A stretch of DNA of 64,000 nucleotides from Desulfurococcaceae archaeon (lineage in GTDB: Archaea; Thermoproteota; Thermoprotei_A; Sulfolobales; Desulfurococcaceae), in NCBI GenBank assembly GCA_038824035.1, contig JAWBBW010000006.1, forward strand, positions 1 through 64,000, read 5' to 3'. Positions 5,305 to 32,411 of this stretch are shown piece by piece (position 1 is the first letter of the stretch; each line of letters starts with the position of its first letter). Both the position numbers and the translations under genes were made by a program. The notes below the pieces were generated by a model. It was given only the letters and a program-made list of their open reading frames with translations. It was not told where the DNA came from and did no database searches.

Positions 5305-5354
5305 AAACCAAGTTTTTAACCTTTTTAATCCTGCATAAAAAATAATATTTTCAT

Positions 5355-5430
5355 GCTGGACCCCGGTGCCCATGCAACGTCCCCGAGTACCGGGGAAGAA
5401 TGAGCATGGGACGGGTCACTCCCGGCTACA
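5355..5430 (+). ncRNA. Structured GC-rich RNA, H/ACA-like single hairpin
   Basis: Stems GCTGG/CCGGC, CCCATGC/GCATGGG and TCCCCG/CGGGGA; terminal ACA 5428-30; TTTTTAA TATA-like element about 27 nt upstream. Confidence 0.6.
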
Positions 5431-5542
5431 CTCTTGAATAATATCCTTCTCTAATCCTAGGCCATGCATTTGTTCTTTAATCTAAGACAACTAGTTAAGA
5501 TTAAAAAGGAGGAATAATATCATAAAAATCATAAGATTGAAA

Positions 5543-31857: not shown

Positions 31858-32017
31858 GGTTATTGATCACCGCTTATTTTTAGTCAAATGACATGTGTTG
31901 TGATACTACTACAAGATACCCGAATCCATAAACAGATTAAAAAGCTTGGTTAAAAGTAAAATCAAGTTTTTAATACCCTTTGCCTAAGAATCTAAATAGA
32001 GATTGATGACATCGAGT

Positions 32018-32167
32018 GGGCCCGTAGCTCAGCCAGGCAGAGCGGCGGACCCTGTCAGAGGGGCCGATGCTCCAGACCACTACGGGTCAAAAGACCTTGT
32101 GAAAAGGGATGACCTGGGTCTGGAGGGAGTGACCCGTAGGTCGGGGGTTCGAATCCCCCCGGGCCCA
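32018..32167 (+). tRNA. tRNA-Trp(CCA) with two introns: 20 nt at 30/31 (32049-32068) and 56 nt at 37/38 (32076-32131)
   Basis: Intron 1 has a perfect BHB (CGGC/GCCG, bulges GG^A and AT^G); intron 2 has CTCC/GGAG with AG^A and TG^A; spliced arm GCGGG-CTCCAGA-CCCGT. Confidence 0.92.
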
Positions 32168-32275
32168 CTCTAAAATATGGGTTTCTCTAGCGATATGTCT
32201 GATTCAGCTTGTATTATATTCCCATGGTTTAATGTATTTTAAACCCTAATCATCGTATTAATGTAATGTTGATTG

Positions 32276-32353
<78 letters not shown>

Positions 32354-32411
32354 TTTTAATAATTCTATTTAAAGGACATTTTTAGAAAAGTCTTCACGGG
32401 TTGGTGATTAA

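What the first reader, a model, noticed from the sequence alone, without database searches (positions are those of the whole stretch)
32070..32139. tRNA-Trp intron built like a conformational switch: K-turn plus antisense arms to both exon flanks
Seen in the 56-nt intron: (a) a consensus K-turn, GGGUCA-AAA-GA-CCUU-[GUGAA]-AAGG-GA-UGACCU (32084-32115); (b) GGTCTGGAG (32117-25) pairs 9 bp with CTCCAGACC (32070-78), hiding the anticodon and 5' splice site and competing with the BHB helix, which uses the next GGAG (32126-29); (c) CTACGGGTCA (32080-89) pairs 10 bp with TGACCCGTAG (32130-39) over the 3' splice site, mutually exclusive with the K-turn stem. Known: euryarchaeal tRNA-Trp introns are C/D guides for positions 34 and 39. 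Here the guides cover the same positions, and AAGA read as box D puts D+5 on C39, but canonical C/D boxes are missing. Inference: either a rearranged intron-encoded guide in a crenarchaeote or an L7Ae-dependent splicing switch, possibly working with the 5355-5430 RNA.
Basis: partly seen in the sequence, partly recalled or inferred. Interest (0 to 1): 0.75.

Follow-up and report, generated by a model that had tools for sequence, protein, structure and literature searches.

The report
Guide-like K-turn intron in tRNA-Trp
The main intron of this archaeon's tryptophan tRNA gene is a conserved small RNA module, a protein-binding kink flanked by two stretches that pair with the tRNA's own anticodon arm, and it most likely directs sugar methylation of the tRNA before being spliced out, a trimmed-down relative of a system already known in other archaea.

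Summary
Window 32018-32167 is a tRNA-Trp(CCA) gene with two introns (32049-32068 and 32076-32131). The 9-bp and 10-bp arms and the GA/GA kink motif are at the stated coordinates. The element is not a quirk of this genome: a model built on it finds one copy in 110 of 151 genomes of the class. Both arms covary with their targets (9/9 pairs in 110 of 127 unique introns; intron nt 1-3 fully paired in 100 of 127). The spacing puts N+5 on C39, and GA peaks at N+5 for C34 (80 of 127; the window itself is one nucleotide off). Relatives whose tRNA-Trp lacks this intron instead carry stand-alone canonical C/D sRNAs aimed at C34. Best reading: an intron-borne, single-kink C/D-type methylation guide. It is related to the euryarchaeal tRNA-Trp intron and belongs with the stable Sulfolobus intron circle noted in 2012. 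The naked RNA strongly prefers guide-paired folds over the splicing fold, so a switch is needed. The 5352-5432 H/ACA-like sRNA covaries with the intron's 3' tail in part of the family. This is a new variant of a known kind.

The parts
32018..32167 (+). tRNA-Trp(CCA) gene, 150 nt, two introns
   Evidence: Rfam RF00005 48.2 bits; orthologues in 41 of 41 relatives
32049..32068 (+). Intron 1 (20 nt, position 30/31). My reading gives a textbook hBHBh' motif: central helix 32043-46/32063-66, bulges GG|A and AU|G, outer helix 32040-42/32070-72.
   Evidence: Absent from many orthologues that read GCGGG-CUCCAG without interruption. The BHB was read directly from the sequence.
32076..32131 (+). Canonical intron (56 nt, position 37/38): the conserved guide-like module
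   Evidence: Model R1 finds one copy in 110 of 151 genomes of the class; 116 pattern hits in named records
32070..32078 (+). Arm A target: anticodon loop C32-G37 plus intron nt 1-3
   Evidence: Pairs with 32117-25. 95.5% of cells paired, 3 covarying pairs, 0 of 500 shuffles. Intron nt 1-3 fully paired in 100 of 127.
32117..32125 (+). Guide 2 (GGUCUGGAG). G32123 pairs with C34 and is always the 11th nt after GAUGA.
32080..32089 (+). Guide 1 (CUACGGGUCA), antisense to the 3' splice junction and positions 38-45
   Evidence: 99.1% paired; 9/9 pairs in 110 of 127; follows 9 exon variants; 0 of 5000 permutations
32130..32139 (+). Target of guide 1: last two intron nt plus A38-G45 (C39 = 32133)
32091..32094 (+). 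Box D'-like AAGA (family consensus NNGA). The GA forms one half of the tandem G.A pairs.
   Evidence: GA invariant; spacing GGGUC-N4-GA in 30 of 30
32095..32107 (+). Hairpin CCUU-GUGAA-AAGG that stacks on the G.A pairs (the K-turn NC stem)
   Evidence: Three of four pairs covary
32106..32112 (+). Box C'-like GGGAUGA
   Evidence: GGAUGA invariant in 26 of 26 aligned sequences
32126..32132 (+). GGAG of the BHB central helix, then the UG|A bulge. GUGA (32129-32) is a box D-like NNGA across the 3' splice site, one nt beyond N+5 for C34.
   Evidence: BHB helix 98.1% paired. GA at N+5 in 80 of 127 relatives' introns, but at N+6 here.
5352..5432 (+). H/ACA-like sRNA whose 3' guide (5411-5423) is complementary to 32125-32137
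   Evidence: Rfam PyrR205 28.5 bits, E 1.4e-4, below the gathering score. Model R2 hits 35 of 41 relatives. Covariation with the intron tail.

Best explanation
The 56-nt canonical intron of pre-tRNA-Trp is an intron-borne, box C/D-type 2'-O-methylation guide reduced to a single kink motif.

Anatomy: an NNGA (box D'-like) and an invariant GGGAUGA (box C'-like) form tandem G.A pairs on a short hairpin. This should be an L7Ae site.

Guide 1, 5' of the NNGA, pairs across the 3' splice junction and places N+5 on C39. Guide 2, 3' of GGGAUGA, pairs with the anticodon loop plus the first intron nucleotides and addresses C34. In most relatives a degenerate NNGA follows at N+5.

Both duplexes need unspliced pre-tRNA and exclude the BHB splicing fold, so modification would come before splicing and the RNA must then refold.

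Shown: the RNA-RNA pairings, their conservation and spacing, and the replacement by stand-alone sRNAs. Inferred: L7Ae, Nop5 and fibrillarin binding, the methylations themselves, and the order of events.
For: 1. Conservation. The element is single copy in 110 of 151 genomes of the class. The pattern scan gave 116 hits, in records named Desulfurococcales, Ignisphaera, Thermogladius, Pyrodictiaceae, Sulfolobaceae, Nezhaarchaeales and Hadarchaeales.
2. Covariation. Arm A is 95.5% paired with 3 compensated pairs. Guide 1 is 99.1% paired. No shuffle in 500 reached these values. In 127 unique introns, guide 1 has 9/9 pairs in 110, and intron nt 1-3 are fully paired in 100. Permutations gave 0 of 5000 for each.
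3. Boxes. GGAUGA is invariant in 26 of 26. The spacing GGGUC-N4-GA puts N+5 on C39 in 30 of 30.
4. C34 spacing. GA sits at +7/+8 after the C34-pairing G in 80 of 127 introns. At offsets +3 to +6, for which all 127 tails are long enough, the count is 8-28. It is 28 of 112 at +8 and 41 of 93 at +9.
5. Replacement. In family f9, R1 hits 1 of 25 genomes, and four tRNA-Trp genes checked there lack the canonical intron. In that family 8 of 27 genomes (genus g33: 6 of 7) carry stand-alone sRNAs with boxes C, D', C' and D. Their D guide pairs with mature positions 31-41 and puts N+5 on C34. Their D boxes are likewise NNGA.
6. Literature. Cm34 was found in S. acidocaldarius tRNA-Trp (PMC7668247, passages). 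Pyrobaculum sR26 is predicted to target C34 of tRNA-Trp (PMC6009581, passages). The S. solfataricus 65-nt tRNA-Trp intron is a very stable circle with complementarity to positions 34 and 39 (PMC3326292, passages).
7. Proteins. Genes for fibrillarin, Nop5 and L7Ae are present in this genome.
Against: - No box C lies upstream of guide 1 in any sequence read, so the usual second K-turn is missing.
- The spacer after C' is 15 nt rather than the 12 seen in the stand-alone sRNAs.
- In the window itself the D-like GA is at N+6, not N+5, for C34. In 47 of 127 introns there is no GA at N+5.
- The 3-nt bulge is on the D' strand, so the kink has the opposite polarity to a canonical C'/D' motif, and the guides leave from the C-stem side. 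It is unknown whether Nop5-fibrillarin can use this arrangement.
- Some lineages keep only one arm: f18 and f14 lack guide 1, and two f2 introns lack guide 2.
- No methylation data exist for this organism. Cm39 was not mentioned in the Sulfolobus paper (0 occurrences).
- The GGAG-NGA tail is also required by the BHB, so part of the GA peak could come from splicing constraints.
Confidence: 0.6

Rival explanations
1. An L7Ae-dependent folding or splicing switch without methylation. L7Ae binds the kink and decides whether the pre-tRNA sits in the arm-paired fold or the BHB fold, so it times or licenses splicing. The arms act only as chaperone or anti-BHB elements.
For: - The arm-paired fold is the minimum-free-energy fold (-79.6 kcal/mol). 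With the BHB and anticodon stem forced it is -61.8 at 37 C; at 80 C the values are -21.9 and -13.5.
- 3b:3n is an invariant C-G pair and -1b:-1n is not C:G. By the rules quoted in PMC6298567 (section 5) this predicts a kink that folds only when protein binds.
- The terminal box C is missing and the kink polarity is non-canonical.
Against: - It does not explain why intron-less lineages acquire canonical C/D sRNAs aimed at exactly C34.
- It does not explain the GA peak at N+5.
- It does not explain why the box C' letters UGA are invariant.
- A pure switch would not need the C39 register.
Confidence: 0.2
2. Ordinary intron structure. The arms and hairpin only stabilise the pre-tRNA or the excised circle, no protein partner is involved, and the box-like letters are by-products of BHB and exon constraints.
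For: - GGAG-NGA and GUC are constrained by the BHB and the exon.
- The intron folded alone has an unremarkable energy.
Against: - Invariant GAUGA and GA with fixed spacing persist across a whole class while everything around them varies.
- The arms stabilise a fold that blocks splicing, which is the opposite of what a passive scaffold would do.
Confidence: 0.08
3. The intron itself is an H/ACA-type pseudouridylation guide, with a K-turn on an upper stem, a pocket and a lower stem.
For: In the minimum-free-energy fold the kink sits on an upper stem above an internal loop that is closed by the 9-bp arm. This resembles H/ACA topology.
Against: - No ACA follows the lower stem.
- The 'pocket' is 4-5 nt on one side and 1 nt on the other.
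- The lower stem is the anticodon itself.
- There was no Rfam H/ACA match in 31900-32400 at E up to 10.
Confidence: 0.02

Closest known systems
Euryarchaeal pre-tRNA-Trp intron box C/D guide (Haloferax volcanii; Pyrococcus sR50)
   Same: It is an intron at the canonical position of tRNA-Trp and guides 2'-O-methylation of positions 34 and 39 (passages in PMC3326292, PMC7994747 and PMC11408192). Here the antisense elements address the same two positions in the same gene.
   Different: The intron here is 56 nt, against 105 nt in H. volcanii. It has one C-type box only, no terminal box C, D-type boxes reduced to NNGA, a 15-nt spacer, and a hairpin between D' and C' with the bulge on the D' strand. 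The primary papers (Clouet d'Orval 2001, Bortolin 2003, Singh 2004) were not held, so the box-by-box comparison rests on recall and no euryarchaeal sequence was aligned.
Sulfolobus solfataricus 65-nt circular tRNA-Trp intron (Danan et al. 2012, PMC3326292)
   Same: The authors report a highly stable circle, no consensus C and D boxes, and two 7-bp complementarities to positions 34 and 39, and they suggest a guide role. Sulfolobaceae records (Metallosphaera, Stygiolobus, a Saccharolobus MAG) carry the same plan as the window, with an intron of about 64-65 nt.
   Different: The passages I read from that paper name no kink motif, spacing rule, covariation or distribution. Its Supplementary Figure S2 was not visible to me.
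Stand-alone C/D sRNAs for C34 of tRNA-Trp (Pyrobaculum sR26, PMC6009581; family f9 sRNAs found here)
   Same: The guide core pairs with CUCCAG, and N+5 falls on C34.
   Different: They act in trans, have all four boxes and a 12-nt spacer (15 nt in one), and pair with spliced or intron-less tRNA rather than across the exon-intron junction.
L7Ae-binding K-turn switches in l7ae mRNA leaders (PMC5539422, PMC6298567)
   Same: A hairpin K-turn predicted to fold only on L7Ae binding, which then stabilises one of two RNA states.
   Different: Those regulate translation of an mRNA. Here the competing states are guide-paired and splicing-competent pre-tRNA.
H/ACA sRNA guiding pseudouridine 35 of pre-tRNA-Tyr across its intron (S. 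islandicus sR115, PMC11077068)
   Same: It is a precedent for a trans H/ACA RNA that pairs with exon plus intron of an unspliced pre-tRNA. It is the closest analogue for the 5352-5432 RNA.
   Different: No target uridine could be assigned here. The duplex covers the 3' splice site rather than the anticodon.

Membership tests
Archaeal box C/D sRNA | Terminal box C (RUGAUGA) pairing with box D (CUGA) as a K-turn. The consensus is quoted in PMC5539422. | tested here: not met
   The 3-10 nt between the 5' splice site and guide 1 hold no GA-containing box in 30 of 30 orthologues. A D-like NNGA exists at the 3' end.
Archaeal box C/D sRNA | Internal C'/D' motif | tested here: inconclusive
   GGGAUGA is invariant and NNGA is at a fixed distance. 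However, the 3-nt bulge is on the D' strand and R1/U2 of C' pair with the hairpin, so the polarity is non-canonical.
Archaeal box C/D sRNA | Target nucleotide pairs with the 5th nt upstream of box D or D' | tested here: met
   D' to C39: 30 of 30, with L034 shifted by one nucleotide. D to C34: GA at N+5 in 80 of 127 introns, but N+6 in the window.
Archaeal box C/D sRNA | Spacer of about 12 nt between C' and D | tested here: not met
   The C34-pairing G is the 11th nt after GAUGA in 29 of 30, which implies a 15-nt spacer. The stand-alone f9 sRNAs have 12.
Archaeal box C/D sRNA | Assembly with L7Ae, Nop5 and fibrillarin, and methyl transfer | not testable with these tools
   The genes are present in the genome. 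No binding or modification data exist.
Kink-turn (K-turn) | Tandem sheared G.A/A.G next to a 3-nt bulge | tested here: met
   GA and GA are invariant and the spacing of the bulge is fixed. The geometry itself is inferred.
Kink-turn (K-turn) | Watson-Crick C stem beyond the bulge | tested here: inconclusive
   6 bp in the window. Across 26 sequences only U-A and C-G are invariant, the -1 pair forms in 18 of 26, and the helix is 62.8% paired. In 127 introns -1b is U in 92.
Kink-turn (K-turn) | NC stem continuing from the G.A pairs | tested here: met
   The hairpin has 3 covarying pairs.
Archaeal BHB tRNA intron | Two 3-nt bulges separated by a 4-bp helix, with cleavage after the second bulge nucleotide | tested here: met
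   Intron 1 has a full hBHBh' motif (read). Intron 2 has the central helix CUCC/GGAG 98.1% conserved and both bulges in register, but the inner helix is weak, so the motif is relaxed.
H/ACA sRNA (for the intron) | ACA box 3' of a lower stem, and a two-sided pocket | tested here: not met
   No ACA and no Rfam match.

The most novel reading that the evidence does not exclude
Pre-tRNA-Trp is a regulated hub. A cis-acting, single-kink C/D-type guide with inverted K-turn polarity and a trans-acting H/ACA-like sRNA (window 5352-5432) compete for the same 3' splice junction. Together they enforce an order of events: fold, bind L7Ae, methylate C34 and C39, hand over, splice. This would be a modification-before-splicing checkpoint built from two guide-RNP classes on one substrate. 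It would be conserved across Thermoproteota and reach Hadarchaeales.
Probability: 0.25. Interest if true: 0.75.

Novelty: new variant of a known kind. Interest (0 to 1): 0.5.

Why it matters
Intron-guided methylation of tRNA-Trp is a textbook case for Euryarchaeota. For Crenarchaeota the passages I read contain only a remark that the Sulfolobus intron is stable, lacks C/D boxes and is complementary to positions 34 and 39.

This work adds three things:
- The intron is a class-wide conserved element with a definable kink motif, fixed spacing and covarying guides.
- It is replaced by canonical trans-acting sRNAs where the intron is lost.
- It gives a natural example of a C/D-type guide with one kink of unusual polarity. 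That can test how much of the C/D architecture Nop5-fibrillarin really needs.

It also gives a concrete case of modification and splicing competing for the same nucleotides. Finally, it flags an H/ACA-like sRNA that appears to track the same splice junction.

Tried and rejected
1. Sequencing runs. Of 24 runs listed, none held half of the sampled words. I laid three RNA runs and one DNA run. All were contigs, and they covered only the conserved exon parts (32016-32050 and 32126-32169) at 90% likeness or more, with many joints from other tRNAs or organisms. This gives no information on splicing, circles or expression of this intron.

2. Primary papers on the euryarchaeal system were not held. 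No euryarchaeal tRNA-Trp intron sequence could be fetched, so homology with it was not tested by alignment.

3. Rfam at E up to 10 on 31900-32400 gave only tRNA plus noise, including SNORD67 at 15.8 bits. No curated family covers the intron.

4. Reading the intron as a full C/D sRNA. I looked for a box C in the 5' part, in intron 1 (CCGAUGC at 32064-70) and across the circularisation junction. None is conserved.

5. An rRNA target for the 5352-5432 sRNA. Only about the first 1060 nt of 16S are in the assembly and I found no convincing site. A 12-mer search with one mismatch found only the sRNA itself, the pre-tRNA-Trp junction and one site that, from its flanking sequence, looks like coding DNA (I did not annotate it).

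6. A pattern search for trans guides in five f9 genomes gave counts close to its reversed control. Only reading the contexts separated real sRNAs from coding-region hits. In the order-wide search there were 16 matches in 15 of 201 genomes, against 9 control matches. By reading the flanks only (no ORF calls), four of the 16 (G091, G175, G210, G101) sit in what look like coding regions. Two (G028, G083) are the intron itself.

7. In the scan of named records, L145 (an Actinomycetota MAG) is a chance match outside any tRNA. L144 (a Methanobacteriota MAG) looks like a Sulfolobaceae-type gene and may be mis-binned.

8. Supplements are closed. Danan Figure S2, Daume Table S1 (which names the one tRNA enriched with L7Ae) and Lui Tables S4/S5 could bear on these claims and were not seen.

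Full report
**What is at the locus.** Rfam's tRNA model matches window 32018-32167 (+) at 48.2 bits, with 85 nt inserted in the anticodon arm. ARAGORN does not call it. Comparison with orthologues that read GCGGG-CUCCAGA-CCCGU without interruption shows that the gene is tRNA-Trp(CCA) with two introns. Intron 1 is 32049-32068 (20 nt, position 30/31). The canonical intron is 32076-32131 (56 nt, position 37/38).

Intron 1, read directly from the sequence, forms a textbook bulge-helix-bulge. Its central helix is 32043-46/32063-66. The bulges are GG|A and AU|G. The inner helix is CCCU/AGGG and the outer helix is GAG/CUC (32040-42/32070-72). This uses the D-stem strand and the anticodon loop.

**The observation.** The two arms are the only perfect stems of 9 nt or more in the 150-nt gene: 32070-78 with 32117-25, and 32080-89 with 32130-39. 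Two such stems arose in 2 of 3000 shuffles.

**Conservation.** A DNA search found the gene in 41 of 41 relatives. All 30 loci returned carry the same intron plan. After the exon's CUCCAG come 3-35 variable nt, then CUAYGGGUC, four nt, GA, a short hairpin that starts with C and ends with G, and GAUGA. Seven nt later comes CUGGA(G/A), in 29 of 30 (the miss is L006). A G/A-rich tail ends in GNG just before A38.

I aligned 26 of the 30. I left out L016 and L028, which are identical to other rows, and L025 and L026, which have long insertions. A covariance model built on this alignment found the element in 110 of 151 genomes sampled from the class, one copy in all but one of them. By family the hits were 27/28 in f1 and 32/34 in f13, but only 1/25 in f9 and 2/7 in f2.

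A pattern scan of named species genomes gave 116 hits, of which 80 were listed. They lie in Desulfurococcales, Ignisphaera, Thermogladius, Pyrodictiaceae and Pyrolobus, Sulfolobaceae (Metallosphaera, Stygiolobus, a Saccharolobus MAG), Nezhaarchaeales and Hadarchaeales MAGs. One hit is a chance match outside any tRNA, and one may be mis-binned.

**The pairings are real.** On the 26-sequence alignment:
- Arm A is 95.5% paired. The three pairs that involve intron nt 1-3 are compensated in 5, 7 and 6 sequences.
- Guide 1 is 99.1% paired, with one compensated pair.
- The hairpin has three covarying pairs.
- None of 500 shuffles reached the observed values, and slid registers drop to 27-47% paired.

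On 127 unique introns the result is the same. These were selected by fixed motifs, not by the variable positions.
- Guide 1 makes 9 of 9 pairs in 110 of them and follows nine exon variants. For example, GACCCAGUG goes with CAUUGGGUC and GACCCGGAG with CUCCGGGUC.
- Intron nt 1-3 are fully paired in 100 of them, with more than 20 different triplet pairs.
- Permutations reached the observed sums in 0 of 5000 for each.

Because arm A needs intron nucleotides and guide 1 spans the 3' splice site, selection acts on unspliced pre-tRNA.

**What the kink is.** Only U-A and C-G are invariant, the -1 pair forms in 18 of 26, and the helix is 62.8% paired. In 127 introns the -1b nucleotide is U in 92.

What is conserved is NNGA, a hairpin and GGGAUGA. 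Against the consensus quoted in PMC5539422 (RUGAUGA and CUGA), GGGAUGA is a near-consensus box C' and NNGA a degenerate box D'. A Hadarchaeales MAG has a perfect CUGA there.

The 3-nt bulge lies on the D' strand and the hairpin stacks directly on the G.A pairs. As a K-turn, therefore, the polarity is opposite to a canonical C'/D' motif. With 3b:3n an invariant C-G and -1b:-1n not C:G, the rules quoted in PMC6298567 predict that it kinks only when L7Ae binds.

**Spacing.** The G that pairs with C39 is the fifth nt upstream of NNGA in 30 of 30. One other relative, L034, is shifted by one. The G that pairs with C34 is the 11th nt after GAUGA in 29 of 30.

A GA lies at +7/+8 after that G, which is box D at N+5, in 80 of 127 introns. 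At offsets +3 to +6, where all 127 tails are long enough, GA occurs in 8-28. It occurs in 28 of 112 at +8 and 41 of 93 at +9. In the window the GA is at +8/+9 (GUGA at 32129-32, across the splice site), one nucleotide off. No box C precedes guide 1 anywhere.

**Replacement test.** Family f9 almost never has the element. Four tRNA-Trp genes checked there (G032, G061, G105, G106) are intron-less or keep only intron 1.

An order-wide pattern search hit 15 of 201 genomes, with 9 control matches. Eight of the 15 are among the 27 f9 genomes, and 6 of the 7 genomes of genus g33 are hit. The contexts show canonical sRNAs with box C, D' (CUGA), C' (UGAUGA), a guide such as GGGUCUGGAGC, and a D box of AAGA, AUGA, CCGA, GGGA or CUGA. 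Each has N+5 on C34 and pairs with the spliced sequence. One more such sRNA is in G240 (family f5). G000 itself has none.

This complementary distribution is the strongest argument that the intron's guide 2 does the same job.

**Literature.**
- Danan et al. (PMC3326292, passages) reported that the 65-nt S. solfataricus tRNA-Trp intron is a very abundant circle. It lacks consensus C/D boxes and has two 7-bp complementarities to positions 34 and 39, and the authors suggested a guide role. The Sulfolobaceae sequences I retrieved fit the same plan.
- Wolff et al. (PMC7668247, passages) found Cm34 in S. acidocaldarius tRNA-Trp. Cm39 is not mentioned there.
- Lui et al. (PMC6009581, passages) predict that Pyrobaculum sR26 targets C34 of tRNA-Trp.
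- Daume et al. (PMC5539422, passages) found one tRNA enriched with L7Ae. Its identity is in a closed supplement.
- The euryarchaeal system is known to me here only through passages in reviews.
- My searches turned up no description of the kink motif or of the distribution in Crenarchaeota. The library lacks most subscription papers.

**The switch aspect.** The arm-A fold is the minimum-free-energy structure (-79.6 kcal/mol). Forcing guide 1 onto the junction gives -76.4. Forcing the anticodon stem plus the BHB central helix gives -61.8. At 80 C the values are -21.9, -21.0 and -13.5.

So the naked RNA avoids the splicing fold, and intron 1's BHB also needs C32-C34. A rearrangement is required. 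Whether L7Ae drives it is not known.

**The 5352-5432 RNA.** It matches Rfam PyrR205 (an H/ACA-like family) at 28.5 bits, E 1.4e-4, below the gathering score. A model built on it hits 35 of 41 relatives. Its 3' region is complementary to 13 nt across the pre-tRNA-Trp 3' junction. Allowing one mismatch in the 12-mer, the only other site in the genome is one that looks like coding DNA from its flanks.

In family f1 the sRNA follows the intron tail:
- GGGAGUG goes with UCACUCCC (G000, G022, G023).
- GGGGGUG goes with UCACCCCC or UCGCCCCC (G002, G015).
- GGGGCG goes with UCGCUCCC (G021, G006).
- G008 has 16 contiguous pairs with a changed sRNA end.

For 22 genomes the summed cognate run into the intron is 73, against 48.5 +/- 6.8 for permuted pairings (p about 1.5e-4, not corrected for relatedness).

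Evidence against the link:
- 14 of the 22 have runs of 3 or less. Most show an A.A mismatch at -2, flanked by pairs.
- Of the 30 sRNA hits, eight were left out of the test. Six lack the anchor and show no such complementarity (G004, G005, G007, G009, G013, G039). G017's tRNA-Trp was not extracted. G032 has no canonical intron.
- The sRNA persists unchanged in G032, which has no canonical intron.

The exon part (GACCCG, three unpaired nt, then GUCGGGG pairing with the sRNA's 5' CCCCGGU) occurs in G000 only in tRNA-Trp. So tRNA-Trp may be the conserved target, with intron pairing added in f1. I could not assign a target uridine.

**Verdict.** The best explanation is an intron-borne, one-kink C/D-type guide for Cm39 and Cm34 that also forces a conformational change before splicing. 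I put this at about 0.6. A pure L7Ae switch is the main rival. It is a new variant of a known kind, partly anticipated for Sulfolobus in 2012.

Noticed in passing
window 5352-5432 (+): An H/ACA-like sRNA (Rfam PyrR205-like, below the gathering score), found in 35 of 41 relatives. Its 3' guide is complementary to the pre-tRNA-Trp 3' splice junction and shows compensatory changes with the intron tail in part of family f1. Six of 30 sRNA hits lack the complementarity. No target uridine could be assigned.
   Followed up: partly
window 32040-32072: Intron 1 of tRNA-Trp (32049-32068) forms a perfect hBHBh' motif that borrows the D-stem 3' strand and C32-C34. The cloverleaf, arm A and this BHB are therefore mutually exclusive. 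The intron is present in only some orthologues.
   Followed up: partly
window 32021-32027 and 32133-32139: The heptamer CCCGUAG occurs twice in the tRNA, at acceptor/positions 4-10 and at positions 39-45. Guide 1 could therefore also pair with the 5' end of the tRNA (a 7-bp stem).
   Followed up: no
L258/L276 (G061), L263, L264, L266-L270, L274: Stand-alone canonical C/D sRNAs with a D guide to C34 of tRNA-Trp, in genomes whose tRNA-Trp lacks the canonical intron. One (G061) keeps the 15-nt spacer of the intron version, which hints at descent from it.
   Followed up: partly
L025 (G029), intron 5' part: This relative's intron carries an internal copy of the target GACCCGUAG just upstream of guide 1. 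It could fold back on the guide as a decoy.
   Followed up: no
L077 (G041, family f14): The tRNA-Trp reads CCCCAG in the anticodon loop, which implies C rather than U at position 33. It has a further intron in the T arm and no guide 1.
   Followed up: no
G000 contig C2, about 85926 (-): A second tRNA with an intron tail ...GGCAGAG|ACCCGG followed by GGUCCGGGG. This is the only other site in the genome resembling the bipartite target of the H/ACA-like sRNA.
   Followed up: no
G007 contig C13 and G009 contig C23: In these two genus relatives the best hit of the H/ACA-like model lies about 1.4 kb from the tRNA-Trp gene on the same strand, although its 3' region is not complementary to the junction.
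   Followed up: no
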